Shown: piece by piece, positions 24,813 through 48,889 of the stretch
Numbering within the stretch: position 1 is the stretch's first letter
How the letters are laid out: each line of letters opens with the position of its first letter
NCBI GenBank assembly: GCA_016699365.1
Contig: CP064973.1
Coordinates: 301,684 to 365,683 of the forward strand
Direction: 5' to 3'
DNA length: 64,000 nucleotides
DNA from: Candidatus Nomurabacteria bacterium
GTDB taxonomy: Bacteria; Patescibacteriota; Minisyncoccia; Phycocordibacterales; UBA9973
The notes under the pieces: model-generated
Database searches by the model: none
Seen by the model: only the letters and a program-made list of their open reading frames with translations
Told to the model about the DNA's origin: nothing
Position numbers and translations under genes: made by a program

Positions 24813-24817
24813 AAAAT

Positions 24818-25867: not shown

Positions 25868-26272
25868 ATGCGATTTAGCGTCCCTCAATTTATTGATATC
25901 GAAGATAAAATATTTGGACCATTTACCTTCAAGCAGTTTGTGTATTTAGCTGGAGGTGCTGGTATTTGTTTCATTGTATACAAGTTGCTACCTTTTTTCT
26001 TTGCGGTTATATTTATAGTTCCAATAGCAGGTCTCGCACTGGCTTTGACTTTTTACAAAGTTAACAACAAGCCTTTTATTGCAATACTCGAGTCTTATAT
26101 TAGATTTCTTATGCAGGGTAAGTTGTATATTTGGAAAAAAGATCCGAAGAAAAAAGAAATAAATAAGACAGAAGATGTACTTCCTGCTCCGATTGTTCCT
26201 AGATTATCAGAAAGTAGACTTAAGGATATATCCTGGAGTCTAGATGTTCTCGATGTAAACTCTAAAAAGTAA
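25868..26272 (+). CDS. Small two-TM membrane protein, VirB3/PrgI-like by size, topology and position
   Basis: 134 aa with two adjacent hydrophobic helices near the N-terminus; immediately upstream of the VirB4 ORFs, as is typical for VirB3. Confidence 0.4.
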   Translation: MRFSVPQFIDIEDKIFGPFTFKQFVYLAGGAGICFIVYKLLPFFFAVIFIVPIAGLALALTFYKVNNKPFIAILESYIRFLMQGKLYIWKKDPKKKEINKTEDVLPAPIVPRLSESRLKDISWSLDVLDVNSKK

Positions 26273-26294
26273 ACTATTTGGTATACTAAACTCT

Positions 26295-26939
26295 ATGGCA
26301 ATCAACGCACGCTCAACACAATCATTCGTACCGATCAAAGAAGTTCGGGATGGCGTTGTTGTACTTAAAGATGGTGGTTTGCGTGCTGTGATTATGGCAT
26401 CTTCTGTAAACCTATCGCTTAAGTCTAGTGATGAACAACAAGCTATAATTATGCAATTCCAAACCTTCTTGAATTCTTTGGAATTTTCGACTCAAATAAT
26501 TGTTCAATCTAGGAGATTGGACATAAAACCATACTTACTTACACTTGAGAATCGAATGAAGGATCAAGTCGAACCCCTACTTAAAGTTCAAACAAAAGAG
26601 TATATAGAATTTATAAGATCATTTACAGAACAGGTGAACATAATGACAAAGAACTTTTTTATAGTAGTACCTTATTCTGCAGCTCCATTGTCAAAGCAGG
26701 GTAGTATAACAAAGGCATTTTCCGATCTTACTGGTGCTGGAGATAAAGTTAGTCAAAAAAATGACGCACTATCTTTATTTGAAGAAAAAAGAACCCAGTT
26801 AGAGCAGCGTGTTGCAGTTATTCAACAGGGTCTTAATCGTTGTGGTGTGCGTAGTACAAAACTTGGGACAGAAGAAGTGATAGAACTTTTTTATAAAGTA
26901 TTTAATCCTGGTGAGACTGAACAAAATATAAAAATATAA
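26295..26939 (+). CDS. VirB4 N-terminal-domain-like protein (CagE/TrbE/VirB-type N-terminus). Either a separate ORF or the frameshifted 5' part of virB4.
   Basis: PIKEVRDGVVVLKDGGLRAVIMASSVNLSLKSSDEQQAIIMQFQTFLNSL matches the characteristic VirB4 N-terminus. Its stop overlaps the next ATG in another frame at an A-rich run. Confidence 0.45.
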   Translation: MAINARSTQSFVPIKEVRDGVVVLKDGGLRAVIMASSVNLSLKSSDEQQAIIMQFQTFLNSLEFSTQIIVQSRRLDIKPYLLTLENRMKDQVEPLLKVQTKEYIEFIRSFTEQVNIMTKNFFIVVPYSAAPLSKQGSITKAFSDLTGAGDKVSQKNDALSLFEEKRTQLEQRVAVIQQGLNRCGVRSTKLGTEEVIELFYKVFNPGETEQNIKI

Positions 26940-26941
26940 TT

Positions 26942-28768
26942 ATGGGAATTTTAGATAAAATTTTAGGTAAATCAAGTAAAAAAGCAGACGAACACCAAGT
27001 TTTGCCTGTTTTACCAGAGGAAATATATCAAGCGGCAACTCTAGAACTTCAGGATGTTATCGCGCCATCAGCACTACAAGTTGAGCCAAAGGCTTTGCAT
27101 TTGGGTGATAAAATAGCTCGTACTTTTTTTGTAATTTCTTATCCAAGATATCTTACTGATAACTGGTTTGCGCCAATCATCAACTTAGATAAAATATTTG
27201 ATGTTTCTTTTTTCATACACCCTATTGATACAGCTACAATATTGCGTCAATTTCAGAAAAAAGTTGCTGAGGTGCAAAGTCAGATAAATATGAGAGAGAG
27301 CCGTGGTCTTGTTCGTGACCCAATACTTGATACTGCGTACCGCGACCTAGAAAGTTTGCGTGATAGTTTGCAACAAGCCCAAGAAAAGATGTTTGATGTT
27401 GGTTTGTATATAACAATGTATGCCGACAATGAAGATGAGCTTTTCAAGTTGGAAAATGAAATAAAGTCTATCTTAGATGCCAAGCTAGTGTATCTAAAGC
27501 CAGCACTGTTTCAGCAGGAAGAAGGATTTAAGAGTGTAATTCCAATAGGTACAGATCTTCTTGGTGTACACCAGAAGCTTAATTCTGAACCTCTTTCTAG
27601 TATTTTCCCATTCGTTTCTTTTGACCTTACTTCTGATAAGGGTATTTTATATGGCGTAAATCGACACAATTCAAGCTTGGTTATATTCGACCGTTTCTCA
27701 CTTGAAAACTATAACTCTATTACTTTTGCAAAATCTGGTTCTGGTAAATCTTATGCCACAAAACTAGAGCTTATTCGTACTCTCATGTTCGACACAGAAG
27801 TGATTGTGATAGACCCAGAGCGTGAATATGAATACTTGGCTGAAGCGGTAGGTGGAAGATATTTCAATATTTCACTATCTAGTGATCACCACATCAATCC
27901 TTTTGATCTTCCTATACCTCGTGAAGATGAAACAGCTAGTGATGTGCTTCGCTCCAATACAATCAACTTGGTTGGGTTGTTTAGAATAATGCTCGGCGGC
28001 CTTACTCCAGAAGAAGATGCAATTATTGATCGTGCGATAACTGAGACATATGCTATCAAGGATATCACTGCAAATTCTGATTTCTCGAATATTGAACCAC
28101 CGCTTTTGTCTGACTTTGAAATGGTTTTATCAGGAATGGAGAATACCGAATCCGTTGTTCAGAAGTTGCAAAAGTACACTCGCGGTAGTTGGGCAGGTTT
28201 CTTAAATCAGCCTTCAAACGTTGATATCAATAAAAAATTCGTAGTGTTTTCAGTGCGTGATATGGAAGACGAACTCAAGCCTGTTGCGATGTATATTGTT
28301 ACTCACTACATTTGGAATGCAGTACGTAAAAATCTACGCAAAAGATTGCTTGTAGTGGACGAGGCATGGTGGATGATGAAAAGTGAAGACACAGCATCTT
28401 TCTTGTACTCAATTGCCAAGCGCGGAAGAAAATACTATCTAGGACTAATGACCATAACACAAGACGTGGGGGACTTCTTGAAAAGTCCGTACGGATTGCC
28501 GATCGTAACAAACTCTTCTATTCAATTGCTGTTGAAACAATCTCCTAGTTCTATAGATGTTCTTCAAAAGACTTTCAATTTAACAGATGAAGAAAAGTAT
28601 CTTCTTTTAGAATCAGGAGTCGGAGAGGGAATATTTTTTGCTGGATTAAAGCATGTCGCCATAAAGATTATTGCTTCATATACTGAAGATCAGATCATAA
28701 CATCTGATCCATCACAAGTATTGGCCATCCAGAAAGCTAAAAAGGATTTAGAAGAAGCGTCTAGTTAG
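26942..28768 (+). CDS. virB4: Type IV secretion / conjugal transfer ATPase, VirB4 family (Gram-positive PrgJ/TcpF-like)
   Basis: Walker A motif FAKSGSGKSYAT; Walker B motif LLVVDEAWWMM; motifs IAPSALQVEPKALHLGDKIARTFFVISYPRYL and C-terminal MTITQDVGDF. Confidence 0.8.
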   Translation: MGILDKILGKSSKKADEHQVLPVLPEEIYQAATLELQDVIAPSALQVEPKALHLGDKIARTFFVISYPRYLTDNWFAPIINLDKIFDVSFFIHPIDTATILRQFQKKVAEVQSQINMRESRGLVRDPILDTAYRDLESLRDSLQQAQEKMFDVGLYITMYADNEDELFKLENEIKSILDAKLVYLKPALFQQEEGFKSVIPIGTDLLGVHQKLNSEPLSSIFPFVSFDLTSDKGILYGVNRHNSSLVIFDRFSLENYNSITFAKSGSGKSYATKLELIRTLMFDTEVIVIDPEREYEYLAEAVGGRYFNISLSSDHHINPFDLPIPREDETASDVLRSNTINLVGLFRIMLGGLTPEEDAIIDRAITETYAIKDITANSDFSNIEPPLLSDFEMVLSGMENTESVVQKLQKYTRGSWAGFLNQPSNVDINKKFVVFSVRDMEDELKPVAMYIVTHYIWNAVRKNLRKRLLVVDEAWWMMKSEDTASFLYSIAKRGRKYYLGLMTITQDVGDFLKSPYGLPIVTNSSIQLLLKQSPSSIDVLQKTFNLTDEEKYLLLESGVGEGIFFAGLKHVAIKIIASYTEDQIITSDPSQVLAIQKAKKDLEEASS

Positions 28769-28863: not shown

Positions 28864-29805
28864 GTGATTATGTTCTCTGCACCTTTTAGCACAAGCGCAC
28901 TTGTTGGCAGTGATGTTATTGCAGAAATTACTCCAGAAATACCTGGCCCAAATGAACAAGTTACAATCAGGCTTACTAGTTATGCTATAGATTTGAATAG
29001 TTCACTAATTACTTGGAAGATTGGTGGTAAAACAGTTTTATCAAAAAACGGAGCCGTTTCCTATACTTTAAGTTCTGGTGCTAGTGGTTCTAGAACTACA
29101 GTTGAGGCAACTATTGTTTTTAGAGGTTCAACTTTAGTAAAGACAATATTGATTGAGCCTTCAACAATAGATCTTATATGGGAAGCTGTAGATTCATATA
29201 CACCTCCTTTTTATAAAGGTAAGGCACTACCTTCATCGGAAGCTGTTATAAAAATAGTAGGTATACCAGACATGAAATCTGGTGGAATAAAGCTTTCAAA
29301 AAATGACCTGACTTTCTCATGGGAGAGAAATTTTAGTGCGCTGCCAGTTTTTTCTGGATACGCAAAAGATTCTTTTATTTTTAAAACTAGTTATTTGAAT
29401 ACAACAGAAACAATATCTTTAAAAGCTAGCTCTATCAACGGTGGTCTTTCAGCTCAAAAAATCTCTACAATAAGAACCTCTTCACCTTTTATTGTTTTTT
29501 ATGAGTACAGTCCTCTTGCTGGAGTAAATTATAAAAAAAATCTTGGTGAATATTTTTCTCTAACTAAAGATGAGGCTACTATTGTAGCGGAGCCTTATTT
29601 CTTTTCTCCGAAAGATGCACTATCTAATGATCTAGATTATGAGTGGAAAATCAATGGCACAAGGATTGCAAACCAGTATCCTAAAAATACTCTTGTAGTT
29701 AGGAAACCTGCTGGTGCTAGTGGTAATGCATTTATTGATCTTTCAATTGAAAGTAAACCTAGGCTTTTTCAATCAGCAGATAAAACTTTAAATATTAATC
29801 TATAA
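28864..29805 (+). CDS. Hypothetical beta-rich secreted protein (313 aa)
   Basis: ORF in the cluster; Ser/Thr-rich, Ig-like character; no motif. Confidence 0.5.
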   Translation: MIMFSAPFSTSALVGSDVIAEITPEIPGPNEQVTIRLTSYAIDLNSSLITWKIGGKTVLSKNGAVSYTLSSGASGSRTTVEATIVFRGSTLVKTILIEPSTIDLIWEAVDSYTPPFYKGKALPSSEAVIKIVGIPDMKSGGIKLSKNDLTFSWERNFSALPVFSGYAKDSFIFKTSYLNTTETISLKASSINGGLSAQKISTIRTSSPFIVFYEYSPLAGVNYKKNLGEYFSLTKDEATIVAEPYFFSPKDALSNDLDYEWKINGTRIANQYPKNTLVVRKPAGASGNAFIDLSIESKPRLFQSADKTLNINL

Positions 29806-29809
29806 AACC

Positions 29810-31171
29810 ATGATCATTTTTAAAAAATATAAGATTGCGCTAGCTGTTATTATTTTCTTGGGCCTGATCGTATCCAAGAGTGTTTATGCTGCTGTAGATG
29901 TTTTTGTTGATGATGGAGGAACAGATCTTAATCCAACATCTTTTTCTTTTGAGGGAGATGTTGTTGGAGCGGGGACCGGATTTTCTATGATCCCTGTATG
30001 GGGTGTTACAGCTACATCTTTAACAAATAGTGCCCCAGTAATTACACCGCTTGCGGACGGTTCATTTAGTGGTTCTATAACAGGCCTTACTCCAAATACA
30101 ACTTACTACTATCAGTTTATAGATGCAGCTGACGGCACAATAAAGCTTACGATAGTAGATTCGTTTACTACTCCGCTTGTTTTTGCTGGTACGGATGGTG
30201 GTAAAGATGCCGTAGATTTGACCGGCTCTGGTTCAGGAACTTCAAATCCGAATTGTACAAATGGTGATGATTCATACTGTTTACTAGCTCCTATACCTGG
30301 TTTATCTGAAGTTAATCCGGCAAATACTGATCTTGGTGATTATCTGAATATAATTATAAAATTTGCGATTGGGTTTGCCGGTGCGCTTGCAGTTATCATG
30401 ATGGTGCTTGGAGGTATTCAATATATGTCTACAGATGCGCTGTCTGGAAAGAGCGAGGGGAGAGAGCGTATTACTTATGCTCTGGGAGGATTATTGTTAG
30501 CTCTAGCTAGTTACTTAATACTAAATACAATAAATCCAAATTTGGTTAATTTACATCTTGGAATCCAGGGTACAAACATACAAGTTGTTGAATCGCCGGA
30601 AGATATATTTGCTTTACAGGTTCAGTCTTTTGAATCAACAGGGCAAAATACTTTGGGTAATAAGTATTTGATGTTTGGTAATTATGCTGCCCCTCTACCT
30701 AGTGCTGGAGTGTCCGATTTTGTAAATACATACTTGAAAAATGGATATTCTCTTTCAGAAATAAAAATAAATACATCTACTAAAAAAGCAGAATTTGTAG
30801 CAAAAAATGGAGGAGCAACGAAGAGCGTTATTATAGATATAAACATAGGAGCAAACGGTGCTTCTGAGGTGGGGATGGGTGTGAGTGGAGATTTAAAAAC
30901 ACCAAAAGGTATATGGACTATACCTGCAAATGGTAGGAAGATTTCTGAGAACCAGGATTCTGCTATTTTAAATGGAGCTGGTGTAAACATGGGCGCAGCT
31001 TTTGTGAATACAGGTGCTACTTTGCCTAGCGGCACAGATCGAGGTATTGGTTTTCATGGACAGGCTAACAATAATCTAGGAAATACAGCTGGATGTATAA
31101 AGATGCGAAATGACGACATCTTGATCCTTTATCCTTATATGGTTTCTGGTGTTAAAGTAAATATATTCTAG
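29810..31171 (+). CDS. Secreted/membrane protein combining a VirB2/TrbC-like two-helix hydrophobic hairpin with a C-terminal L,D-transpeptidase (YkuD) catalytic domain
   Basis: Signal peptide. Hairpin KFAIGFAGALAVIMMVLGGIQYMS..YALGGLLLALASYLIL. C-terminus GIGFHGQANNNLGNTAGCIKMRNDDILILYPYMVSGVKVNI matches the YkuD motif HG..(S/T).GC(I/V)(R/K)M.N.D. Confidence 0.55.
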   Translation: MIIFKKYKIALAVIIFLGLIVSKSVYAAVDVFVDDGGTDLNPTSFSFEGDVVGAGTGFSMIPVWGVTATSLTNSAPVITPLADGSFSGSITGLTPNTTYYYQFIDAADGTIKLTIVDSFTTPLVFAGTDGGKDAVDLTGSGSGTSNPNCTNGDDSYCLLAPIPGLSEVNPANTDLGDYLNIIIKFAIGFAGALAVIMMVLGGIQYMSTDALSGKSEGRERITYALGGLLLALASYLILNTINPNLVNLHLGIQGTNIQVVESPEDIFALQVQSFESTGQNTLGNKYLMFGNYAAPLPSAGVSDFVNTYLKNGYSLSEIKINTSTKKAEFVAKNGGATKSVIIDINIGANGASEVGMGVSGDLKTPKGIWTIPANGRKISENQDSAILNGAGVNMGAAFVNTGATLPSGTDRGIGFHGQANNNLGNTAGCIKMRNDDILILYPYMVSGVKVNIF

Positions 31172-31172
31172 T

Positions 31173-32540
31173 ATGAATAAAAAAAGATTAATCATAATAG
31201 TTTCATTTATTGTAATCATTTTGATTGTCTTTTTATCTATTTTTTTGAAAAATAAAAATACAAATCCTGAAACAAGTGGAGATGGTTTTAGTTTGTCAGA
31301 CCTTTTTCCTTTCGGGTCTGTGACTGACAGAGGTGGTAGTTCGGACAATGATACAAACGACGATATTATTCCTGATGTTGTTACTGTGGATGAGAATGGG
31401 AATGTGATTATTCCACGCCTTAGACAGGTTTCTACTTTCCCTGTTTCTGGAGCAACTGTATTTAATACAAAAAGAACAAGAGTTGTTCCAATCCCTCCTC
31501 TACCAATCGAAGGTGACTCAGGAGGTGATCCTGTTGTTATAGCGCAGACTCCAACAGAAGAAATTGTAGTAGAAGATGCGACAGCTATCAGGTATATGGA
31601 ACAATCAACTGCTCATATATATGAGACTTATACTGATACATTGACTGAAACAAGAATTTCAAATACAACCATACCTAGGATATATGATACCTATTGGAAT
31701 TTAGACGGAGGGTCTGTAGTTTTTAGATATTTAGAAGATGGAACAAATAAGATACAAACATATCTTGCAACACTTTCTTCTCCGAGTGTTTTTGCGGAAG
31801 GGGGTAGTAGTCAAAATCCATCAGTTTTAAAAGATTTAAAGGGAAATTTTTTGGTGGAAGGAATTACAGATATATCGGTGTCACCAGACAAGACTAGGTT
31901 TTTTACTCTCGAGCCTGTTGTCGGGGGAGTTGTTGGTATAACAGAGGATTTTCTAGGTGGTAAAAAATCTCAAGTATTTGAATCATCTCTTTCTGAATGG
32001 TTGTCATTTTGGCCAAATGCGACAACTCTAACACTTACTACAAAACCTTCAGGCACACTTCCTGGGTACATGTATTCCGTAGATGTAAATAAAAAAAGTT
32101 TTGACAAAGTACTAGGAGGGATTGTTGGTTTAACTACAAAAATGAGCCCAGATGGTAAAAAAGTTTTATACAGCGCATCTGTTGCAAATGAGGTAAGACT
32201 TTATTCTTATGATTTAAATACAAAATCTACTACAGATCTGGGTATATCTACTCTTCCAGAGAAGTGTGTATGGTCAAAAGACAGCATAACTGTATATTGT
32301 GCTGTACCAGAAAGTTTCTTGTTGGGGGTATATCCTGATGTTTGGTATCAAGGACGTGTATCTTTTGAAGATACATTGTGGAGTATGAACCTCAGTACAA
32401 GTGTTTATTATGTATTAGTTGACCCTATAGAAACAATTAATATTCCTATTGATATGACAAACCTATTCTTGGACGGAAGTGAAAAATACATTTTTTTCAC
32501 CAATAAAAAAGACGGGATTCTCTGGAGTTATAGCATATAA
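31173..32540 (+). CDS. N-terminally membrane-anchored protein with PD40/TolB-like beta-propeller repeats
   Basis: N-terminal TM segment; repeats of the SPDKTRFF / SPDGKKVLYSA type. Confidence 0.45.
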   Translation: MNKKRLIIIVSFIVIILIVFLSIFLKNKNTNPETSGDGFSLSDLFPFGSVTDRGGSSDNDTNDDIIPDVVTVDENGNVIIPRLRQVSTFPVSGATVFNTKRTRVVPIPPLPIEGDSGGDPVVIAQTPTEEIVVEDATAIRYMEQSTAHIYETYTDTLTETRISNTTIPRIYDTYWNLDGGSVVFRYLEDGTNKIQTYLATLSSPSVFAEGGSSQNPSVLKDLKGNFLVEGITDISVSPDKTRFFTLEPVVGGVVGITEDFLGGKKSQVFESSLSEWLSFWPNATTLTLTTKPSGTLPGYMYSVDVNKKSFDKVLGGIVGLTTKMSPDGKKVLYSASVANEVRLYSYDLNTKSTTDLGISTLPEKCVWSKDSITVYCAVPESFLLGVYPDVWYQGRVSFEDTLWSMNLSTSVYYVLVDPIETINIPIDMTNLFLDGSEKYIFFTNKKDGILWSYSI

Positions 32541-33420: not shown

Positions 33421-35071
33421 ATGCAATCGGGTGAATTACTAAAAAAACTATTAGAAAATAGAGGTGTAGACGAAGGTCAAATAGACTCTTTTTTGCTCCC
33501 AGACTACGAAAAGACTTTGCATGACCCTTTTTTATTCAAGGATATGGAGCGTGCGTGCGTGAGAATTTTTGAAGCTATAGATCAGAATCAAAAAATAGTT
33601 GTTTATGCAGATTATGATGCAGATGGAATTCCTGGGGCAGTTATATTCAATGATTTTTTCAAAAGATTGGGTATGAGAATTTTGATATATACATACCCGA
33701 TCGTCACGATGAGGGTTATGGTTTACATAAAAGCGCAGTAGATGAATTTATAAAACAAGGTGTATCGCTCATAATTACTGTTGATTTGGGTATTACCGCA
33801 GTGGAAGAAGTAAGAGATGCTCTTATTGGAGGAGTTGATGTGATTATTACCGATCACCATTTACCACACGCAGGAGTTCCAAGGGCTTTTGCAATCATCA
33901 ATCCTAAATACGATACAAATTATCCATTTGATGGACTTTGCGGAGCAGGAGTTGCTTTCAAGGTTGTGTGTGCGCTTATAAAAAAATATGGAGAATATTG
34001 GAATATAAAAGAAGGTTGGGAAAAGTGGACACTTGATATGGCAGGACTCGCCACCCTTTCTGATATGGTTCCATTGGTAGGTGAGAATAGAACCATTGCT
34101 TATTGGGGTCTTCATGTAATGCGTAAATCTCCTAGACCGGGGTTGGTGCATTTATTTAAAAAAGCGGGGATTAATATGCGCTATATCAATGAAGAAGATA
34201 TAACTTTTTCACTTACTCCTAGACTAAATGCTGCTTCACGTATGGCATCTCCTAAAAGTGCTTTTATGATGCTCGCAGAAAAAGATATTTTAAAAGCGCA
34301 GGGTTTTGCAGAATATCTTACTGGCATAAATGACGAAAGAAAGACAATAGTTGCTAGCATAATGAAAGATGTTCACAAGAACTTAGAAAAAAGAGAACTT
34401 TGTGAAGTTATAGTTATCGGTAATCCGTCTTGGCGAGTCGGGGTGCTGGGTCTTGTTGCTTCAAAAATATGTGAGACTTATAAACGTCCTGCTTTTGTTT
34501 GGGGTAGAGAGGGTGGAAAAGAGGAGGATGATGCTCCTATAAAAGGGTCTTGTAGATCAGATGGAAGTGTAAATATTGTTGAGCTCATGCAACTAGAAAG
34601 TGAATCTTTTGCTAGTTTTGGAGGACATGAAATGGCGGGAGGATTTAGTGTAAAAAGTGAGCATATACATTTTTTAGAAGATAAATTAGCATCTAAATTT
34701 TCATCGATTAAAAGAGATGTAAAAATAGATGACATAGCATATGATCTCGAGCTTAGTATAAGTGATATAAACAAAGGTAACTACAAATCCATAGATAGCC
34801 TATCCCCATATGGCCTTGGCAATCCAAAACCCATCTTTTTATTTAAGAGTGTAAAGATAGAATCTATGAAGCAATTTGGTAAAGAAAAAAATCATCTAGA
34901 GATGATATTTTCAGGAGGTGGTAAAAAAGTTAAAGCCATATCTTTTTTGACTCACCGCATGAGTATGGAGTTTTAGGGGAAGGTTTAAATGTAGATTTGT
35001 ACGCAACATTTGAGTTGTCTAGATTTGCAGGTAAAGAAGAGCTCCGCTTGAGAATAGTTGATATAAAATAA
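33421..35071 (+). pseudogene. recJ: recJ-like DHH-family single-stranded-DNA exonuclease interrupted by two -1 frameshifts, at a G3 run (~33669) and a T6 run (~34943)
   Basis: DHH motifs VVYADYDADG and ITDHH. The conserved IPDRHDEGYGL and the C-terminal ...HEYGVLGEGLNVDLYATFELSRFAGKEELRLRIVDIK continue in the adjacent frames. Confidence 0.6.
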
Positions 35072-41038: not shown

Positions 41039-41072
41039 AAAATTCCCCTTATAAAGGGGAATTTTTTATTTG
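41038..41072. terminator. Bidirectional terminator (TTCCCCTT-ATAA-AGGGGAA)
   Basis: Hairpin with flanking A and T tracts. Confidence 0.65.
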
Positions 41073-41984: not shown

Positions 41985-43886
41985 ATGAAGAGAATTTTAT
42001 TTTTATTTATAATATCAATATTTTTTCTAAATGTTTTTTCTGTGGTTGCTTCTGAGACTGAGGGTACTATTGATGTAGATAGTTATACTTCAAAAATATA
42101 TACACACGGGGAATTGATTTATTGGCTTGTCCCTGGCAATGCTGGTGCAGAAGATGTTCTTATAACTGATACTACTGTTGTTGGAGATATTTGGGGTCCT
42201 AGTTTAGGGTGGATTCATTTGGATCCGAATTCTGGTGGCGTTTTAAATGACCCGGATGCAGATTCTTCTCGAGGCCAGCTTTCGGGATATGCGTGGGGAG
42301 AGGGTGCAGGGTGGATAAATTTTGGTCCGTTTTCAAATAGCTCCACACAAGAAGTCTATATAGATATGGATGGAGAGTTTGTTGGTTTTGCATGGAGTGA
42401 AAACTATGGCTGGATACAATTTGACTGTGGTGTTACAGGAGCTTGCGTAAAGACTGATTGGAGACCTAAAGATGCTAGAGATGGGGACACCACTGGGGGT
42501 GGTGGGGGCAATCCTCCAAGTTTATGTTCTGATGTAAATGCTACAAATTACGGTGGAAGTCTTCCTTGTACATATATAATTTCTATTTGTTCTGATGTTG
42601 CTGCAGCTAACTTCGGCGGCGCATCACCTTGTAATTATCCGCCTAGTGAATGTGTAGGGGTGGAATGTAATCCACCAGAAGAACAAGATGTGTGTGGAGA
42701 TTTGTTTGCTACAAATTACGGCGGATCGTTACCTTGTAATTATTCACCTAGTGAATGTGTTGGCGCAGAATGTAATCCACCAGAAACTTGCACGGGTGAT
42801 GATTGTGTTCCACCACCTCCACCACCTACCGATATAGACGTAGAAGATTGTGTTGGTATTGGTTGTGTTGCAGATGATGGTATCAATTTTATTGATGATC
42901 TGTCAGGAGGAGTAGAAGATTATATAAACAGTGCAGATGGAGGTCTAGCGACTAGAATTTTTACTGGTTTTGCTCTTACAACTAGTGCTGTTATATCGAT
43001 TGCTTCGCTGTTGTTCATGAACCCACTCTCACTCTCTGAACTTGTTTTTATTCCTTTTAGATTGTGGTCGCTACTACTGGCAGCATTTGGATTATCAAAA
43101 CGCCGTCCACCATGGGGAACTGTCTACGATTCTATAACCAAGCAACCTCTTGATCCGGCGTATGTTGTTTTGTATGACAAATATGGAAGTGAAGTATCAA
43201 CATCTATAACTGATCTAGATGGACGTTTCGGCTTCTTGGTTCCAGGTGGAATATATAAAATAATCGCCAATAAAACTAACTATAAATTTCCTTCAGAAAA
43301 ATTAGCTGGCCAGAAGAAAGATGAGCTCTATCAAGATTTGTATTTTGGCGAAGAATTAGAGGTTACAGAAAATTCTCCGATTACAAAAAATATTCCTATG
43401 GATCCAATAAACTTTGATTGGAATGAATTTGCAAAGAAACAACAAAAACTGATGAAGTTCTATTCAAGACGTGATGCTATTTTCAGACAAATATCTGACA
43501 CTTTATTTGCGGCTGGATTCTTTATATCTTTTATTGCGTTTCTAGTATCTCCTGTTTTGTACAATATAATTATATTTAGTTTATATATATTACTGTTTAT
43601 TCTTAGAGAGGTTGGATATAAAGCACATAAGTTGGGTGGAATTGTTGATAAGGCAACTGGTCTACCTCTGTCGTATGCAATATTGAGAGTTTATTCTGTG
43701 GCAAATAACCAGGAAATCACACACAAGGTTGCTGATGCGAGAGGTCACTACTATTGTCTAATTTCAAATGGAAATTATTATGTGACAATAGAAAAGAAAA
43801 ACGAAGATTCTACTTATACAAAGGTTTTCGTATCACTTGCTTTTGAAGTTAAGGATGGTCACATAAAAGATGTATTCAGTGTATAA
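41985..43886 (+). CDS. Hypothetical membrane protein with a tandem Cys-rich repeat region and a C-terminal TM domain
   Basis: Signal/TM N-terminus; repeats CSDV.A.N(Y/F)GG..PC.Y...EC(V)G.ECNPPE; several TM helices near the C-terminus. Confidence 0.55.
   Translation: MKRILFLFIISIFFLNVFSVVASETEGTIDVDSYTSKIYTHGELIYWLVPGNAGAEDVLITDTTVVGDIWGPSLGWIHLDPNSGGVLNDPDADSSRGQLSGYAWGEGAGWINFGPFSNSSTQEVYIDMDGEFVGFAWSENYGWIQFDCGVTGACVKTDWRPKDARDGDTTGGGGGNPPSLCSDVNATNYGGSLPCTYIISICSDVAAANFGGASPCNYPPSECVGVECNPPEEQDVCGDLFATNYGGSLPCNYSPSECVGAECNPPETCTGDDCVPPPPPPTDIDVEDCVGIGCVADDGINFIDDLSGGVEDYINSADGGLATRIFTGFALTTSAVISIASLLFMNPLSLSELVFIPFRLWSLLLAAFGLSKRRPPWGTVYDSITKQPLDPAYVVLYDKYGSEVSTSITDLDGRFGFLVPGGIYKIIANKTNYKFPSEKLAGQKKDELYQDLYFGEELEVTENSPITKNIPMDPINFDWNEFAKKQQKLMKFYSRRDAIFRQISDTLFAAGFFISFIAFLVSPVLYNIIIFSLYILLFILREVGYKAHKLGGIVDKATGLPLSYAILRVYSVANNQEITHKVADARGHYYCLISNGNYYVTIEKKNEDSTYTKVFVSLAFEVKDGHIKDVFSV
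42525..42795 (+). repeat. Three diverged tandem repeats of ~90 nt encoding Cys-rich modules
   Basis: The nucleotide and protein motif repeats three times: TGTTCTGATGT..GCTACAAATTACGG..CCTTGTAATTAT..AGTGAATGTGT. Confidence 0.5.
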
Positions 43887-43892
43887 GATAAA

Positions 43893-45614
43893 ATGTATAG
43901 ATTTAAAATTTTTAAAAAAAATATACTACGCGAAAACCGACTTCTAGTCATCGCACTTCTTTTTCTATTCGTCTTCTCTATAACAATCAGAGCTTTTGCA
44001 ACATATCCAGCAACTCCATTTGCTCCGTCTGATCAAGAAAACGATCCTTCTTGTTCTCCTGGTGATGCAAACTGTTATGTAACTCCTATGGCAATTGGGG
44101 AGACTGTGGGGACGGGGACACTCGGATCTGTTTTATTTCTTGGAACAGCAGGTATTTTAGCTGAAGACAATACGAATTTCTTTTGGGATGATACAAATAA
44201 TAGACTTGGTCTCGGTACAGCATCACCAGATACAATTTTAGATATCACAGGTTCTGGTGGTGGAGCACTTTTTACTTTTAATACTGGTGGTACAAACAAG
44301 ACTGCTCAAATAAACTTTGTTGATGCAAGTACGAGTAAGGCGGTTTTAGGATGGGATGGACCCAATGCTCGTTTTGAGCTTGATACGGATGAATCAATAT
44401 ATCTCGGGGATATGGCAACAGAAGATTATTATTTTTCTATTGAAAGAGGATCTTTTATGCTTACCGGTGGACAAACGAGTGTGTACAATTCAACTGGAGC
44501 TGACTTGGTTGTTAGTGGAGACAGTGACGGGGTTTCCGTTTCACCCGGTATAAATACTTTTGAGATGGCAATATATTCTAGTGCTGCAGGCATTATGCCT
44601 CTTTGGATAAATCTTGCTACGAGTCAGACTGCGAATGCTATCACTGTGACAGACAATGGAGGAAGTACTCTCACTGCGATTACTGCAGGCGGTCTTGTAC
44701 AAGCAACTTCTGGCTCAACAACAACTCCTGGTTTTGGATTTGTGGGTGATACTGATAACGGTTTATACCGTGCTACTACAAATGAAATAGGCTTAGTCAC
44801 AGCAAGCACTGAACGTTTACGCATCGATGCTGCTGGAGAAATAGGAATAGGAGATACAACACCAGACTACTTACTTGATGTTGAAAACACAGGAGTAGAT
44901 ACAAATATATTTGCTCTAACTGATTCGGATGGTGCCTGTTTACACAATCCAGAAGCGGGAACCGAAACGGTAACTTGTTCTTCTGATGAAAGATTGAAGG
45001 AGAATATAGTCAATGCTGATCCGCTGTTGCCTTACTTTAGAGAATTTAATATTCGTGAGTATGACGTGCGCGCTTCGGGAGATCATATGGTTGGAGTTGT
45101 TGCACAAGAAGTCCAAGAAATATATCCCGATTTAGTAAAAATGGGTGGCAATGGTTTTTATACTGTTGAAATACCGAGCACTTGGCAAGTGATCAAAGCT
45201 ATACAGGAGCTTGATATATCTATTCAGAGTATCTCATCTCTTTCTCTTGAAAATGAAAGATCATTGGCAAGTATTATGATTGACTGGTTTTCCGATGCCG
45301 CAAACGGAATACAAACTTTTTTTGCTAGAGAAATACACACAAACGTATTATGTGTAGGAGAAGTGTGTGTCACTGAAGAAGAATTTTTAAATATTGTAAA
45401 TAAAAATAATGAATCTGTTGGTAATGAAGTATCTTCTGATCAGAATATAAATAGTGAAGATATTCCTTCTGAAGAAGATTCGATTACTCCGCTAGAAGAA
45501 GTAGTTATACCAAACGAGGAACCTCCTGTAGAAAGTGAACCAACTATTGTTCCAGATGAAGAAACCACACCTGAAATTCCAGATCTTGAAGAAGAACCTC
45601 TAATATTGGAATAA
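43893..45614 (+). CDS. Membrane-anchored tail-fibre-like protein with a C-terminal intramolecular-chaperone (peptidase S74-like) domain
   Basis: N-terminal TM segment; Gly/Thr-rich repeat body; C-terminal motifs SSDERLKENIV and GDHMVGVVAQEVQEIYP. Confidence 0.6.
   Translation: MYRFKIFKKNILRENRLLVIALLFLFVFSITIRAFATYPATPFAPSDQENDPSCSPGDANCYVTPMAIGETVGTGTLGSVLFLGTAGILAEDNTNFFWDDTNNRLGLGTASPDTILDITGSGGGALFTFNTGGTNKTAQINFVDASTSKAVLGWDGPNARFELDTDESIYLGDMATEDYYFSIERGSFMLTGGQTSVYNSTGADLVVSGDSDGVSVSPGINTFEMAIYSSAAGIMPLWINLATSQTANAITVTDNGGSTLTAITAGGLVQATSGSTTTPGFGFVGDTDNGLYRATTNEIGLVTASTERLRIDAAGEIGIGDTTPDYLLDVENTGVDTNIFALTDSDGACLHNPEAGTETVTCSSDERLKENIVNADPLLPYFREFNIREYDVRASGDHMVGVVAQEVQEIYPDLVKMGGNGFYTVEIPSTWQVIKAIQELDISIQSISSLSLENERSLASIMIDWFSDAANGIQTFFAREIHTNVLCVGEVCVTEEEFLNIVNKNNESVGNEVSSDQNINSEDIPSEEDSITPLEEVVIPNEEPPVESEPTIVPDEETTPEIPDLEEEPLILE
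43929..44101 (+). repeat. 173-nt segment 100% identical to 45731-45903 (5' cassette shared by the two fibre-protein paralogs)
   Basis: Exact nucleotide identity by direct comparison. Confidence 0.8.
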
Positions 45615-45676: not shown

Positions 45677-48600
45677 ATGTTTAAACAAAAGATTTTAGGA
45701 AAAATCAAAAAGTTCTACACTTTTTCAGTGCGCGAAAACCGACTTCTAGTCATCGCACTTCTTTTTCTATTCGTCTTCTCTATAACAATCAGAGCTTTTG
45801 CAACATATCCAGCAACTCCATTTGCTCCGTCTGATCAAGAAAACGATCCTTCTTGTTCTCCTGGTGATGCAAACTGTTATGTAACTCCTATGGCAATTGG
45901 GGAAGTTGTTGGTTCAGGTGACGACAATTCAGTGCTCTTTATTGATACCAATGGTGACCTTGCAGAAGATAGTACCAATTTTTATTTCGATGATTCCACA
46001 GATACTCTATATATAGACAATGTTACGCTGGCAAATAATTTAGAAATAACTACAACTTCAAGTTCTACTGTCGGTGTTTTAACAAAAGACGGAACACGTT
46101 TTTTGCATTCATATAAACCAGCTGGAACAAATGACAACTTGTTTTTGGGTAAAGGAGCAGGAAACTTTACACTCTCTGCAACATCAAACTTCAATGCCAA
46201 TACTGGTATAGGAGAGAACTCACTCGCAACACTTTCTACTGGTTATTTCAACACTGCCTTGGGTACAGCTGCTCTTAGATATACAACTACCGGAAACAAT
46301 AATACTGCTGTTGGGTTACAGGCAGGTAATCGTATTACTACAGGTACATATAACGTGGCTGTTGGGCGAGATGCTTTATACGGAGCAGGCTCACCTTCTA
46401 GTGCATCGGGCTCATACAACGTCGCTTTGGGTTATGCTCCTTTGTATTCTCTTTCAACAGGATCAAATAACGTAGCTGTTGGATATCAAGCAGGTTTGAA
46501 TTCATCTTCTGCAGGGAACAATGTGTTTCTTGGATATGAAGCAGGTCACGACATTACAACAGAATCAGGAAATATTTTTATTGGATATCAAGCAGGAGCT
46601 GACGCAACTGGGTCTGATCAGTTATACATAGAAAACACCAACAGTGCATCACCGCTTATTTTTGGAGATTTTGCAAATGATTATGTAAATATAAATGGAA
46701 GACTTGGTGTTGGAACATCGCCATTGTTGAAATTGGACGTAGCAGGTTCGGGTAGATTTACAGGAGCAGCTACCTCTGTTTTAACAGGATCTATAGATGC
46801 TACTGCTTCTACTACTGTTACAGGTGTCGGTACTCTTTTCTCAACAGAGCTTGTAGTTGGGGATAGAATTACAGTTTCAGGAGAATCACGAACTGTTACA
46901 GCGATTGCTTCGGACACAAGCTTAACTGTTGACACTGCATTTACTGATACAGCAAACGATGCATCGCCCGACAAACTTGCAGCGATCTTTATTGCGCGCG
47001 GATCTGACAGTACTCTCACTATGGTCCAAAACAATTTTGGAAACATTGGAATAGGAACTAGTAGTCCAGATTTTGAAGTGGAAGTGGTTTCAGCTTCTCA
47101 GAACGTTGAAGTAGTTGCTTCTGGATACAATGGTAGAAAGCCAGTTTTTGCAGGACGAAGTGCAAATGGAACAGAAGCTGTGCCAACCGCAACAGTTGCG
47201 ACAGATATACTTGCAGAATTTGCAGGTCAAGGGTATGGGGCGACAGGTTTTGCTCCTTCATCCACTGCATCTATTAGAGTTGTTGCAGAAGAAACTTTTG
47301 ATGATGCAGGATATGGTTCACAACTTTTGTTTCGCACTACTCCAAACAACTCAACCACCCTTACTTCTCGTATGGTTATAACAGCAGATGGCAATGTGGG
47401 TATTGGGGACACGGGTCCGGATAACATTCTTGATATTGCGGCAGATGCTGCTGCTGGTATTGCAATTAGCGCATCGGGTGTTGATGTTGATCCTTATATA
47501 AAATTTGAGCTCGTAGACAATACACCATCTTTCACTATAGGCGTAGATGATTCTGATAGTGATAGTTTCAAGATATCTACTACAGCACTTGGGACAAGTG
47601 ATAGATTTATTATTGATTCATCTGGAAACATAAATGTTGGAGGAGATGGGACACCAGGATCACTTTTCTCTGTTGGTTCAACTTCACAATTTCAAGTTGG
47701 TTCGTCTGGTTCGATCGATGCCGTTACAACAATCACAACATCGGGAGGAATAATCATTGGATCTTCTGGAACAGGTGCTCTTAGTGTTGGAACTACTTCT
47801 GGTGTTTACAGAACAACAAGTGCTGGTAGTAACGTTACGCCTCAAACAGTTTTTGATGTAGATAACTCAAACTCCACCGCTGGTTCTCAAGCATATATTT
47901 TTGATACAAATAGTGGGTTTGTTTTTACTGCCGCAAACGGTGCACGTCGTATTGCACGAGCAGCAATTGATATTACCAATCTTACAAATACCGCAGGTTC
48001 TGAAACAGGTGATTTAGCTTTTTCTACTAAACCATCAGGTGCTGCAATAACCGAACGCTTACGCATCGATGCATCAGGAGAAGTTGGTATTGGAGACACA
48101 ACTCCAGACTATCTGCTTGATGTTGAGAATACCGGGGTTGATACAGATGTATTTGCTCTCACTGATTCTGATGGTGCTTGTTTGCACAATCCTGAAGCTG
48201 GATCTGAGACCGTAACTTGTTCTTCTGATGAAAGATTGAAGGAGAATATAGTTGACGCGAATAGTATCTTGCCTTACTTCATGGATTTTCGTATTAGAGA
48301 ATACGATGTTTTGGCATCCGGTGATCATATGACTGGAGTTATTGCTCAGGAGGTAATGGAGGTTTACCCAGAACTTGTCAGAATGGGTGGCAATGGTTTT
48401 TATACTGTTGAAATACCGAGCACTTGGCAAGTAATAAAAGGTATTCAAGAGCTAAAGATATCAATTGATGATTTAGAATCTTTTGATTTAGAGAATGAAA
48501 ATTCACTAGCACATAAGATTATTCTCTGGCTAAATGACACTACAAATGGAATCCAAAATATATTTGCAAAACGAGTGACTGTTGAAGAGCTCTGTGTTGA

Positions 48601-48889
48601 GGATGTTTGTATAACAAAAGATGATCTTTTGGATATTTTAGATGATAGTGGTTCGTATACTCCTGTTGTGAATGATGGTGGTAATACAGAAGAAACTCCT
48701 ATAGATGATCCAATTATTGAAGAAGAACCAGTAGATTCAGAAGGAGATGGTGTAATTGAAGAGGAAAATACTCCAGAGGAGCCGCCAGTAGAAGAAGAAA
48801 TTGTCTCAGATGAAAATACCGAAGAATTGGGTGGTGGTACTGAAGGGGATCCACAATCCGAAGAGGGTGCAGGTGGAGAAGTCATATAA
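45677..48889 (+). CDS. Membrane-anchored tail-fibre-like protein (1070 aa), paralog of 43893..45614, with the same S74-like C-terminal domain
   Basis: Identical N-terminal 58 aa; body of (N/G)..(A/V)(V/L)G..AG-type repeats; C-terminal motifs SSDERLKENIV and GDHMTGVIAQEV. Confidence 0.6.
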   Translation: MFKQKILGKIKKFYTFSVRENRLLVIALLFLFVFSITIRAFATYPATPFAPSDQENDPSCSPGDANCYVTPMAIGEVVGSGDDNSVLFIDTNGDLAEDSTNFYFDDSTDTLYIDNVTLANNLEITTTSSSTVGVLTKDGTRFLHSYKPAGTNDNLFLGKGAGNFTLSATSNFNANTGIGENSLATLSTGYFNTALGTAALRYTTTGNNNTAVGLQAGNRITTGTYNVAVGRDALYGAGSPSSASGSYNVALGYAPLYSLSTGSNNVAVGYQAGLNSSSAGNNVFLGYEAGHDITTESGNIFIGYQAGADATGSDQLYIENTNSASPLIFGDFANDYVNINGRLGVGTSPLLKLDVAGSGRFTGAATSVLTGSIDATASTTVTGVGTLFSTELVVGDRITVSGESRTVTAIASDTSLTVDTAFTDTANDASPDKLAAIFIARGSDSTLTMVQNNFGNIGIGTSSPDFEVEVVSASQNVEVVASGYNGRKPVFAGRSANGTEAVPTATVATDILAEFAGQGYGATGFAPSSTASIRVVAEETFDDAGYGSQLLFRTTPNNSTTLTSRMVITADGNVGIGDTGPDNILDIAADAAAGIAISASGVDVDPYIKFELVDNTPSFTIGVDDSDSDSFKISTTALGTSDRFIIDSSGNINVGGDGTPGSLFSVGSTSQFQVGSSGSIDAVTTITTSGGIIIGSSGTGALSVGTTSGVYRTTSAGSNVTPQTVFDVDNSNSTAGSQAYIFDTNSGFVFTAANGARRIARAAIDITNLTNTAGSETGDLAFSTKPSGAAITERLRIDASGEVGIGDTTPDYLLDVENTGVDTDVFALTDSDGACLHNPEAGSETVTCSSDERLKENIVDANSILPYFMDFRIREYDVLASGDHMTGVIAQEVMEVYPELVRMGGNGFYTVEIPSTWQVIKGIQELKISIDDLESFDLENENSLAHKIILWLNDTTNGIQNIFAKRVTVEELCVEDVCITKDDLLDILDDSGSYTPVVNDGGNTEETPIDDPIIEEEPVDSEGDGVIEEENTPEEPPVEEEIVSDENTEELGGGTEGDPQSEEGAGGEVI
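45731..45903 (+). repeat. Second copy of the 173-nt identical cassette
   Basis: Exact identity to 43929-44101. Confidence 0.8.

What the first reader, a model, noticed from the sequence alone, without database searches (positions are those of the whole stretch)
44960..45250. Phage tail-fibre-type intramolecular chaperone (peptidase S74-like) domain on cellular, N-terminally anchored proteins
Both paralogs end in a domain with the SSDERLKENIV ... GDHM(V/T)GV(V/I)AQEV.E.YP.LV motif. This is characteristic of the self-cleaving C-terminal chaperone domains of phage tailspikes and endosialidases (the Ser of S-D-x-R-L-K is the autocleavage site). The same domain recurs at roughly 48200-48480. There is no phage context: no capsid, terminase or integrase within 20 kb, and the proteins have N-terminal TM anchors. 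The domain is probably repurposed to fold trimeric cell-surface fibres, perhaps adhesins for an epibiotic lifestyle.
Basis: partly seen in the sequence, partly recalled or inferred. Interest (0 to 1): 0.55.

Follow-up and report, generated by a model that had tools for sequence, protein, structure and literature searches.

The report
Phage-like surface fibres of CPR bacteria
Two neighbouring chromosomal genes of an ultrasmall (Nomurabacteria/CPR) bacterium encode exported proteins built like phage tail fibres and ending in the self-cleaving folding domain that phages use; cell-borne fibres of this kind are already known from predatory Bdellovibrio, so this is a lineage-specific version of a known idea and a candidate host-attachment device.

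Summary
ORF A (43893-45614, 573 aa) and ORF B (45677-48889, 1070 aa) both match Pfam Peptidase_S74 above the curated cutoff. The Ser-Asp-x3-Lys motif is invariant, and the modelled fold matches MyRF ICA and phage S74 domains. The whole 64 kb is cellular, and the gene pair is syntenic in related CPR genomes.

The N-terminus looks like a cleavable Sec signal peptide (AFA|T), not a TM anchor. The whole protein, not only the last domain, is tail-fibre-like. The idea itself has a published, experimentally tested precedent: the Bdellovibrio MAT fibres (2024), whose crystal structures are the best PDB sequence matches to the fibre body.

What appears new is a large Patescibacteria-specific variant, with at least 2,212 clusters at 50% identity. 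It has its own N-terminal disulfide-loop module. It also has a roughly 60-aa Cys-hairpin extension plus a low-complexity tail after the S74 core, which were absent from the viral and proteobacterial relatives examined.

Trimerisation, self-cleavage, surface display and adhesion are all inferred, not shown. Novelty: new variant of a known kind. Interest: moderate.

The parts
43893..45614 (+). ORF A, 573 aa: exported tail-fibre-like protein ending in S74. It is identical to an NCBI protein named 'tail fiber domain-containing protein [Candidatus Nomurabacteria bacterium]'.
43893..44000 (+). ORF A aa 1-36: Sec-type signal peptide (basic n-region, h-region LLVIALLFLFVFSITI, c-region RAFA|T).
   Evidence: the only hydrophobic segment in the protein
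44001..44255 (+). ORF A aa 37-121: conserved N-terminal module. It comprises a CPR-specific Cys-loop segment (aa 37-70; invariant P52, C54, C61) and a generic fibre motif GSVLF..G.LAEDN.NFFWDD.NNRLGLGT (aa 71-121).
44256..44792 (+). ORF A aa 122-300: variable fibre body (27-28% identity within the family; length varies greatly between members).
44793..44981 (+). ORF A aa 301-363: conserved pre-S74 stalk (RLRIDAAGEIGIGDTTPDYLLDVEN...DSDGACLHNPEAG.ETVTCS). This would be the C-terminal tip of the mature fibre after cleavage.
44982..45215 (+). ORF A aa 364-441: S74/ICA core with the putative catalytic Ser364 and Lys369. Cleavage is expected at S363|S364.
   Evidence: cleavage position by analogy with Bd3182 S782 (PMC10769870)
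45216..45398 (+). ORF A aa 442-502: CPR-specific extension (W.SD..NGI..FFA...LCVGEVCVT..EF). It is modelled as two helices, a Cys487/Cys492 beta-hairpin and a helix.
45399..45611 (+). ORF A aa 503-573: acidic, Pro-rich low-complexity tail.
45677..48889 (+). ORF B, 1070 aa: paralogue with the same ends and a much longer, different body.
45677..46066 (+). ORF B aa 1-130: signal peptide (aa 1-42, ...RAFA|T) and N-terminal module (aa 43-130). The 182 nt at 45731-45912 are 98% identical to 43929-44110.
46284..46596 (+). ORF B: five copies of a 17-aa (51-nt) repeat (..TTG.NN.AVGY.AG..), probably beta-roll or beta-helix rungs of the fibre body.
48224..48457 (+). ORF B aa 850-927: S74/ICA core (Ser850, Lys855).
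48458..48886 (+). ORF B aa 928-1070: CPR-specific extension (aa 928-988) and acidic low-complexity tail.
41985..43886 (+). Upstream 633-aa protein with CarboxypepD_reg domains and predicted signal peptide and membrane-spanning segments (read from the sequence), 6 nt before ORF A. It is a conserved neighbour and a candidate partner or anchor; that role is inferred only.

Best explanation
ORF A and ORF B are chromosomal genes of a Patescibacteria (Nomurabacteria-type) bacterium. They encode Sec-exported homologues of phage tail fibres.

Proposed mechanism, with the basis for each step:
1. The N-terminal signal peptide directs export and is probably removed at AFA|T (inferred from sequence).
2. 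Outside the membrane, the C-terminal S74 intramolecular-chaperone domains of three chains associate and nucleate folding of a trimeric beta-helical fibre from the C-terminus. This is known for K1F endosialidase, phage T5 pb1 and Bdellovibrio Bd3182, and is inferred here.
3. The Ser364/Lys369 dyad (Ser850/Lys855 in ORF B) then cuts the chain just before the Ser. This releases a fragment of about 210-220 aa made of the chaperone, a CPR-specific Cys-hairpin extension and an acidic tail. The motif is shown; cleavage is inferred.
4. The mature fibre (about 330 aa per chain for A, about 810 for B) stays on the cell through the conserved disulfide-loop N-terminal module. The partner is unknown; the co-transcribed CarboxypepD_reg membrane protein is a candidate.
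5. The variable middle part of the fibre is exposed as the likely ligand-binding surface, for attachment to a host cell or another surface. This last step is the most speculative.

The family is large, multi-copy and mosaic in CPR, which parallels the Bdellovibrio MAT fibres.
For: S74 identity:
- Pfam match above the cutoff.
- Invariant S, D and K, and S-x4-K spacing kept in all 110 S74 ORFs.
- Confident model of aa 330-513, pLDDT 83. Its only confident PDB fold matches are MyRF ICA chains, probability 1.0. It has 223 BFVD matches at E<=1e-3; the named ones among the top 50 are ICA, S74, tail-fibre or virion structural proteins.

Tail-fibre nature of the whole protein:
- PHROG tail-fibre families match the body as well as the C-terminus.
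- The family profile hits the crystal structures of Bd1334, Bd2133, Bd2439 and Bd3182 in the fibre body, at E 9e-11 to 3e-4.
- ORF B alone hits only Bd1334.

Cellular origin:
- The window carries T4P, glycolysis, T4SS, UvrD, KsgA, RecJ, ComEC, M50 and the str operon, and no phage or eCIS genes.
- The same gene pair sits between the M50/CarboxypepD_reg genes and rpsL in L001 and L084.
- Other copies lie between pheT and gyrB or next to gatB.

Export:
- An AFA/VFA/ALA-type site in 87 of 93 members.
- Three conserved Cys pairs.
- Phage-like relatives lack the hydrophobic N-terminus.

Family size and mosaicism:
- 242 confirmed relatives in species-representative genomes; nearly all of the top 80 are Patescibacteria.
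- Tandem arrays of 2-4 genes.
- 2,212 clusters carry the extension.
- The same N-module occurs with an SO2946-like_C domain and no S74, or with an LVIVD propeller plus S74.
- The 5' module of the two paralogues is 98% identical at DNA level, against 79% for the 3' end.

Precedent: signal-peptide-bearing, surface-located, self-cleaving S74 fibres in Bdellovibrio (PMC10769870).
Against: - Nothing functional was tested: trimerisation, cleavage, localisation and ligand binding are all inferred.
- The monomer model of the full protein is poor (pLDDT 47.7), and no multimer prediction was possible.
- The part that would become the distal tip (aa 301-363) is the most conserved region of the family (63%; 87% between the paralogues). 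The middle is the variable part. This is unlike phage receptor-binding proteins and MAT fibres, where tips vary, and it weakens a simple 'variable adhesive tip' model.
- If both the signal peptide and the chaperone are removed, no covalent anchor remains. There is no LPXTG motif and no C-terminal TM segment in the translations, so retention on the cell is an assumption.
- The essential adhesins found by Tn-seq in the cultured CPR Southlakia are VCBS, dockerin and FN3 proteins, not S74 fibres (PMC10633639).
- All relatives come from MAGs, and the lifestyle of this organism is unknown.
Confidence: 0.55

Rival explanations
1. Same fibre, but the N-terminal hydrophobic segment is an uncleaved signal-anchor. 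The fibre would be tethered to the membrane by a TM helix.
For: There is a single strong hydrophobic segment at the N-terminus and no other anchor in the protein. This would solve the retention problem.
Against: A conserved small-x-small site (AFA, VFA, ALA, AYA) lies 7-10 residues after the hydrophobic core in 87 of 93 members. It is followed directly by a conserved mature N-terminus, TPP.S.Y.PGETLDP.C. That is the classical signal peptidase I layout. No dedicated predictor was available.
Confidence: 0.15
2. A structural envelope coat (an S-layer-like or fuzzy fibre layer) with no specific role in host recognition.
For: Both ends, including the would-be distal tip, are conserved. The genes sit among housekeeping genes and are probably co-transcribed with envelope proteins.
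Against: The family has multi-copy tandem arrays with very different bodies (423 to over 3,000 aa), and inserted binding-type domains such as an LVIVD propeller or SO2946-like_C. These features are more typical of diversifying binding proteins than of a uniform coat.
Confidence: 0.12
3. Secreted or surface tailspike-like enzymes (polysaccharide depolymerases) that digest host capsule or EPS, rather than adhesins.
For: S74 was first described on endosialidases and tailspikes. ORF B matches a PHROG 'tail spike protein' family over aa 154-463.
Against: No catalytic domain was detected by Pfam, NCBIfam or PDB sequence search. ORF A's body is only about 180 aa.
Confidence: 0.1
4. Tail fibres of an extracellular contractile injection system or tailocin encoded elsewhere in the genome.
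For: eCIS tail fibres can carry Peptidase_S74 (PMC12923769).
Against: eCIS and phage fibres assemble in the cytoplasm (established knowledge), and the phage-like relatives examined here lack the hydrophobic N-terminus that the CPR proteins have. No sheath, tube or baseplate gene is present in this window or in six other genomic contexts. 'Patescibacteria' does not occur in the main text of that eCIS catalogue.
Confidence: 0.03
5. Prophage remnant, or phage DNA mis-binned or mis-assembled into the genome.
For: There is sequence similarity to many phage tail-fibre families.
Against: The genes are embedded co-directionally between M50 and rpsL with short gaps (4, 6, 62 and about 110 nt). The G+C content is similar to the surroundings. 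The pair is syntenic in two other genomes. No phage gene is present in 64 kb. The CPR-specific extension was not found on viral contigs.
Confidence: 0.02

Closest known systems
Bdellovibrio bacteriovorus MAT (mosaic adhesive trimer) fibres, S74 subgroup, e.g. Bd3182 (Caulton et al. 2024, PMC10769870)
   Same: Both are cellular (not phage) genes with a signal peptide and a long fibre body. Sequence similarity in the body is detectable: the family profile matches the Bd1334, Bd2133, Bd2439 and Bd3182 structures. Both end in S74 with SDxxxK, are multi-copy and often tandem, and have a conserved N-terminal end with variable content elsewhere. Both organisms live on other cells: this is shown for Bdellovibrio and presumed for CPR.
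   Different: The MAT-defining N-terminal domain of about 130 aa is not detectably related to the CPR N-module. The CPR proteins carry an extra Cys-hairpin extension of about 60 aa plus a low-complexity tail after S74, which is absent from the Bdellovibrio locus L080. In CPR the pre-S74 tip is conserved and the middle varies. The envelope type differs: diderm versus the CPR envelope without an outer membrane (my own knowledge). Cleavage, surface display and ligand binding are shown for MAT but not here.
Phage tail-fibre and tailspike intramolecular chaperone domains (K1F endosialidase CIMCD, PDB 3GW6; phage T5 pb1, 4UW8; PDB 8JOV, 6F45)
   Same: The S74 core with the Ser-Lys dyad, the fold and fibre repeat motifs such as NRLGIGT..P.
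   Different: The phage proteins examined have no hydrophobic N-terminus. Their S74 core ends close to the C-terminus (post-Ser fragment 89-130 aa, against 195-233 aa here). They are encoded in virion modules.
MYRF (myelin regulatory factor) ICA domain, PDB 7DC3
   Same: It is the best solved-structure fold match (Foldseek probability 1.0) and a sequence-profile hit (E 4e-5). It is another example of S74 used by a cell rather than a virus.
   Different: MYRF is a eukaryotic membrane-bound transcription factor. There, cleavage releases a nuclear trimer, not an extracellular fibre.
eCIS tail fibres carrying Peptidase_S74 (PMC12923769)
   Same: S74 at the end of a fibre encoded in a bacterial chromosome.
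   Different: They are part of a contractile particle gene cluster and are assembled in the cytoplasm. No such cluster is present here.

Membership tests
[quoted passage not shown] | Match to the family HMM above the curated gathering score | tested here: met
   34.1 and 35.3 bits against a cutoff of 22; E 3.5e-8 and 1.4e-8
[quoted passage not shown] | Catalytic Ser and Lys in an S-D-x-x-x-K motif | tested here: met
   S364, D365 and K369 are invariant in 22 and in 58 aligned sequences. The S-x4-K spacing is kept in 110 of 110 S74 ORFs.
[quoted passage not shown] | ICA fold | tested here: met
   Model pLDDT is 83, with the core above 90. Top PDB matches are MyRF ICA 7DC3 chains at probability 1.0, with 3GW6 weak at rank 5. 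There are 223 BFVD matches at E<=1e-3; the named ones among the top 50 are ICA, S74, tail-fibre or virion structural proteins. TM-scores are low (0.3-0.46), as expected for one chain of an interlaced trimer.
[quoted passage not shown] | Sits C-terminal to a fibre or beta-helix stalk that it helps to fold | tested here: met
   The upstream region matches tail-fibre PHROGs and MAT beta-helix structures.
[quoted passage not shown] | Homotrimerisation and autoproteolytic release | not testable with these tools
   Only single-chain prediction is available. This needs expression of wild type and the S364A mutant.
Bdellovibrio MAT fibre family (PMC10769870) | N-terminal signal peptide | tested here: met
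   Heuristic n-h-c analysis finds an AxA-type site in 87 of 93 members. No SignalP was available.
Bdellovibrio MAT fibre family (PMC10769870) | Conserved beta-rich domain of about 130 aa immediately after the signal peptide | tested here: not met
   BLASTP of the Bdellovibrio L080 N-terminal domain against the ORF A N-terminus gives E 3.7. The CPR N-module HMM matches Bdellovibrio only through a generic fibre motif at an internal position.
Bdellovibrio MAT fibre family (PMC10769870) | Fibre body homologous to MAT beta-helix regions | tested here: met
   Profile hits: 8OML (Bd1334) 9e-11, 8OND (Bd2133) 3e-10, 8OL4 (Bd2439) 1e-4, 8OJN (Bd3182) 3e-4. ORF B alone against 8OML gives 5e-10.
Bdellovibrio MAT fibre family (PMC10769870) | One conserved end for presentation and a diversified distal end | tested here: inconclusive
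   The N-module is conserved. Alternative contents exist: SO2946-like_C without S74, and an LVIVD propeller. However, in the S74 members the pre-S74 tip is the most conserved part and the middle is variable.
Bdellovibrio MAT fibre family (PMC10769870) | Surface localisation and role in contact with another cell | not testable with these tools
   Requires microscopy or genetics in a cultured CPR.
Phage virion tail fibre or tailspike | Encoded in a phage or prophage structural module | tested here: not met
   No phage gene in 64 kb. Neighbours are housekeeping genes in six other contexts.
eCIS or tailocin tail fibre | Linked to sheath, tube and baseplate genes | tested here: not met
   None found in the window or in the related loci that carry Pfam annotation.

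The most novel reading that the evidence does not exclude
Patescibacteria as a group possess a very large, rapidly shuffling family of Sec-exported, self-processing homologues of phage receptor-binding fibres (at least 2,212 clusters at 50% identity, proteins up to about 3,600 aa). The family is marked by a CPR-only N-terminal disulfide-loop module and a CPR-only extension of the S74 chaperone. On this reading, these fibres, rather than or together with type IV pili, are the main determinants of which host cell an epibiotic CPR bacterium recognises, and the extended released fragment is an adaptation that lets an S74 chaperone work outside the cytoplasm.
Probability: 0.3. Interest if true: 0.7.

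Novelty: new variant of a known kind. Interest (0 to 1): 0.45.

Why it matters
How ultrasmall CPR/Patescibacteria recognise and hold on to their hosts is largely unknown beyond type IV pili and a few adhesins in cultured Saccharibacteria (PMC10633639, PMC12206443). A large, multi-copy, mosaic family of exported phage-tail-fibre homologues gives concrete candidates that can be expressed, tested for self-cleavage, and screened for binding to glycans or host cells. Their variable bodies could become markers for predicting host range from metagenomes. The finding also extends the reach of the S74 chaperone from the cytoplasm (phage, eCIS, MYRF) and the diderm predator Bdellovibrio to post-Sec folding in a different envelope. 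The CPR-specific extension may be the adaptation that makes this possible. No paper in the searchable library links S74 to CPR, although automated annotation already labels these genes 'tail fiber domain-containing protein'.

Tried and rejected
- A single-sequence PDB search of the ORF A C-terminus gave only insignificant hits. The family profile was needed.
- The full-length AlphaFold model of ORF A was poor (pLDDT 47.7) and was not used for fold search. A model of the C-terminal region from a deeper alignment worked.
- A profile search with the N-terminal module alone returned only short fragments of 160 aa or less and said nothing about C-terminal architectures. It was replaced by HMM scans of the fetched loci and of the exhaustive-search hits.
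It was replaced by a single-protein scan and a degenerate DNA pattern, whose one viral hit was a chance match.
- My first signal-peptidase-site heuristic picked sites inside the hydrophobic core and was redone.
- The idea that the two CarboxypepD_reg proteins of the window (2091-3881 and 41985-43886) are paralogues was not supported.
- A MAT-like N-terminal domain in the Saccharibacteria-labelled locus L023 is only weakly suggested (E 0.002 on a 20-aa stretch).
- The Southlakia Tn-seq paper was checked for an S74 fibre with a phenotype; none was found.
Full report
**1. What is there**

The region holds two co-directional ORFs. ORF A is 43893-45614 (573 aa) and ORF B is 45677-48889 (1070 aa). 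Both match Pfam PF13884 Peptidase_S74 above the curated threshold. ORF A matches at aa 364-416 (E 3.5e-8) and ORF B at aa 850-902 (E 1.4e-8). The quoted motifs are present. ORF A is identical to an NCBI protein already named 'tail fiber domain-containing protein [Candidatus Nomurabacteria bacterium]', on a 705-kb contig. So the domain had been recognised by automated annotation.

**2. Is it really S74?**

Ser364, Asp365 and Lys369 are invariant in an alignment of 22 CPR-type relatives. They are also invariant in 58 sequences that include phage-like relatives. In 110 S74-bearing ORFs from 87 loci the S-x4-K spacing is always kept.

A model of aa 330-513 built on the 58-sequence alignment is confident: mean pLDDT is 83 and the core is above 90. 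Its only confident matches among solved structures are the three chains of the MyRF ICA domain, 7DC3, at probability 1.0. The K1F endosialidase chaperone 3GW6 appears weakly at rank 5. Against predicted viral structures it has 223 matches at E<=1e-3, and the named ones among the top 50 are ICA, S74, tail-fibre or virion structural proteins. TM-scores are low, as expected when one chain of an interlaced trimer is compared.

A family profile also hits S74-bearing chains in the PDB by sequence: 8JOV at 1.7e-11, 6F45, and MyRF 7DC3. Self-cleavage and trimerisation cannot be tested with these tools.

**3. Not only the last domain is phage-like**

PHROG tail-fibre families match the body of both proteins as well as the C-terminus. 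The family profile hits the crystal structures of four Bdellovibrio MAT fibres in the fibre body: Bd1334 (8OML, 8ON4), Bd2133 (8OND), Bd2439 (8OL4) and Bd3182 (8OJN). ORF B on its own has only Bd1334 as a significant PDB hit. ORF B also contains five 17-aa repeats at 46284-46596.

**4. Cellular context**

The 64-kb window encodes the following:
- a type IV pilus operon, TIM and PGK, and an M23/LysM peptidase;
- UvrD and KsgA;
- T4SS parts (PrgI and a VirB4/TraG-like ATPase) and a YkuD transpeptidase;
- RecJ, RNase H, ComEC, an esterase, SOD and an MBL hydrolase;
- an M50 protease and a CarboxypepD_reg membrane protein;
- ORF A and ORF B;
- rpsL, rpsG, fusA and tuf.

The unannotated ORFs hit no PHROG family. 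There are no tRNAs and no Rfam matches, and G+C is even across the window. No terminator-like hairpin separates M50, the 633-aa gene, ORF A and ORF B (gaps of 4, 6 and 62 nt). A strong hairpin lies just upstream at 41043-41061.

The same pair lies between M50/CarboxypepD_reg and rpsL in a second genome (L001). In a third genome (L084) the slot holds two tandem units of CarboxypepD_reg gene plus S74 fibre gene. Other homologues lie between pheT and gyrB or next to gatB. Prophage, mis-binning and eCIS explanations are therefore very unlikely.

**5. Architecture of the family**

The CPR-type proteins share seven parts.
1. A basic n-region and a hydrophobic core, followed after 7-10 residues by a small-x-small site. 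This site (AFA, VFA, ALA, AYA and similar) is present in 87 of 93 members.
2. A conserved mature N-terminus, TPP.S.Y.PGETLDP.C.PGD.NC.V, with invariant Pro52, Cys54 and Cys61. It is followed by a generic fibre motif, GSVLF..G.LAEDN.NFFWDD.NNRLGIGT.
3. A body that varies in sequence (27-28% identity) and in length. Whole proteins with all three modules range from 423 to 1,927 aa, and family members with S74 and the extension reach about 3,150-3,600 aa.
4. A strongly conserved pre-S74 stalk (63% mean identity; 87% between A and B).
5. The S74 core.
6. An extension of about 60 aa with invariant Cys487 and Cys492. It is modelled as two helices, a Cys hairpin and a helix.
7. A low-complexity tail: acidic and Pro-rich in this window, T/P/S/G/D/E-rich across the family, with a median of 79 aa.

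All six Cys of ORF A fall into three conserved pairs, which fits an exported, disulfide-bonded protein. This is a heuristic judgement, because no dedicated predictor was available.

**6. What is specific to CPR**

The fragment after the catalytic Ser is 195-233 aa in most CPR-type proteins, against 89-130 aa in most phage-like relatives. In 87 loci, 97 of 110 S74 ORFs carry the extension. The proteobacterial loci (L024, L034, and Bdellovibrio L080 with three tandem S74 fibres) lack it.

An exhaustive profile search with the extension alone finds 2,212 cluster representatives at E<=1e-3, of which 437 are at E<=1e-10. In 120 of 138 new representatives it directly follows an S74 core. Most of the rest are N-truncated fragments or have divergent cores.

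On IMG/VR contigs only the S74 core is found. It ends close to the end of the ORF, with neither the extension nor the N-module. A degenerate DNA pattern for the extension recovers 16 CPR loci but gives only one hit in the viral collection, a chance match. The pattern's sensitivity is only about 16%, so absence from phages is suggested, not proven.

In species-representative genomes, 242 relatives were confirmed. The top 80 are nearly all Patescibacteria (Paceibacterota, Nomurabacteria, Minisyncoccia, Moraniibacteriota), often with several loci per genome. Tandem arrays of 2-4 genes are frequent.

**7. Mosaicism**

The same N-module is found with an SO2946-like_C domain and no S74 (P0069, P0078), and with an LVIVD beta-propeller body plus S74 (P0018). 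Between the two paralogues of the window, the 5' 182 nt are 98% identical at DNA level, while the 3' S74 region is 79% identical and the bodies are unrelated in length. This indicates gene conversion or recombination at the conserved ends.

**8. Comparison with what is known**

The closest known system is the Bdellovibrio MAT family (PMC10769870). It has 21 cellular fibre proteins with signal peptides, 13 of which end in S74 with SDxxxK. Self-cleavage was demonstrated for Bd3182 (S782A blocks it), along with surface location and a role in prey handling. That paper also lists S74-type MAT-like proteins in other predators and symbionts, including Micavibrio, Omnitrophica and Uabimicrobium, but not CPR.

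The proteins here work like MAT S74 fibres on every feature that could be checked by sequence. They fail one defining MAT feature, however. The conserved N-terminal domain of about 130 aa is not detectably related to the CPR N-module. They also differ in having the extension, and in having a conserved rather than variable pre-S74 tip.

No paper in the searchable library connects S74 or intramolecular chaperones with CPR/Patescibacteria. The essential adhesins of cultured Southlakia are of other types. NCBIfam has no model for these proteins.

**9. Most likely mechanism**

The proposed sequence is as follows:
- Sec export and signal-peptide removal (inferred).
- Extracytoplasmic association of three S74 domains, which nucleate folding of the trimeric fibre from the C-terminus (inferred from K1F, T5 and Bd3182).
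- Cleavage before Ser364 or Ser850 by the Ser/Lys dyad, releasing the chaperone, extension and tail (the motif is shown; the reaction is inferred).
- Retention of the mature fibre through the N-terminal disulfide-loop module on an unknown envelope partner. The co-transcribed and co-duplicated CarboxypepD_reg membrane protein is a candidate (inferred).
- Ligand binding by the variable body (speculative).

The extension may help an S74 chaperone to work after Sec export, for example by keeping unfolded chains soluble or close to the envelope. This is a hypothesis only.

**10. Verdict**

It is a new, lineage-specific variant of a known kind of system, of moderate interest. It is not a new principle. 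It is a large, undescribed CPR family that gives testable candidates for host recognition.

Noticed in passing
window 41985-43886 (+); L001 8105-9994; L084 8031-9959 and 12313-14430: A protein of about 630 aa with CarboxypepD_reg domains sits directly upstream of the fibre gene. From the sequence it has a signal peptide, GWIxF repeats, Cys-rich 'C..ATNYGGSLPC' repeats, a poly-Pro stretch and hydrophobic membrane-type segments. In L084 it is duplicated together with the S74 gene, giving two tandem pairs. It may be a functional partner or anchor.
   Followed up: partly
window 43929-44110 vs 45731-45912: The 5' 182 nt (signal peptide plus Cys loop) of the two paralogues are 98% identical at DNA level, while the rest of the genes is far more diverged. 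This suggests gene conversion or recombination at the conserved end.
   Followed up: partly
window 43-4488 (+): A type IV pilus operon (PilB-like T2SSE, PilC-like T2SSF, an N_methyl pilin) has a 596-aa CarboxypepD_reg/SpaA-like protein (2091-3881) inserted between pilC and the pilin. That protein is not a paralogue of the 633-aa protein.
   Followed up: partly
window 9802-14982 and 18555-25714, 28864-32540 (+): Several large ORFs (604, 1112, 304, 707, 1042, 298, 313 and 455 aa) have no Pfam or PHROG hit. Those around 25868-28768 flank PrgI and a VirB4/TraG-like ATPase and may be unrecognised parts of the CPR type IV secretion system.
   Followed up: no
L086 7080-7970: An RVT_1 reverse transcriptase gene lies about 2 kb upstream of an S74 fibre gene in another CPR contig. 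This could be a diversity-generating retroelement targeting the fibre.
   Followed up: no
L012 2-10867: A Minisyncoccia MAG carries a giant ORF, more than 3,621 aa and cut by the locus end, that ends in S74 plus the extension. Representatives up to 3,152 aa were also seen.
   Followed up: no
L023 7217-12352: A 1,711-aa S74 protein without the extension, in a Saccharibacteria-labelled MAG, has an N-terminus faintly resembling the Bdellovibrio MAT N-terminal domain (BLASTP E 0.002 over 20 aa). True MAT-type fibres may therefore also exist in some CPR.
   Followed up: partly
window 33786-34976 (+): The RecJ-like ORF is 396 aa with a TTG start, and its DHH match begins at profile position 49. The syntenic genes in L001 and L084 encode 550 aa. 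This may reflect a wrong start, a frameshift or a truncation.
   Followed up: no
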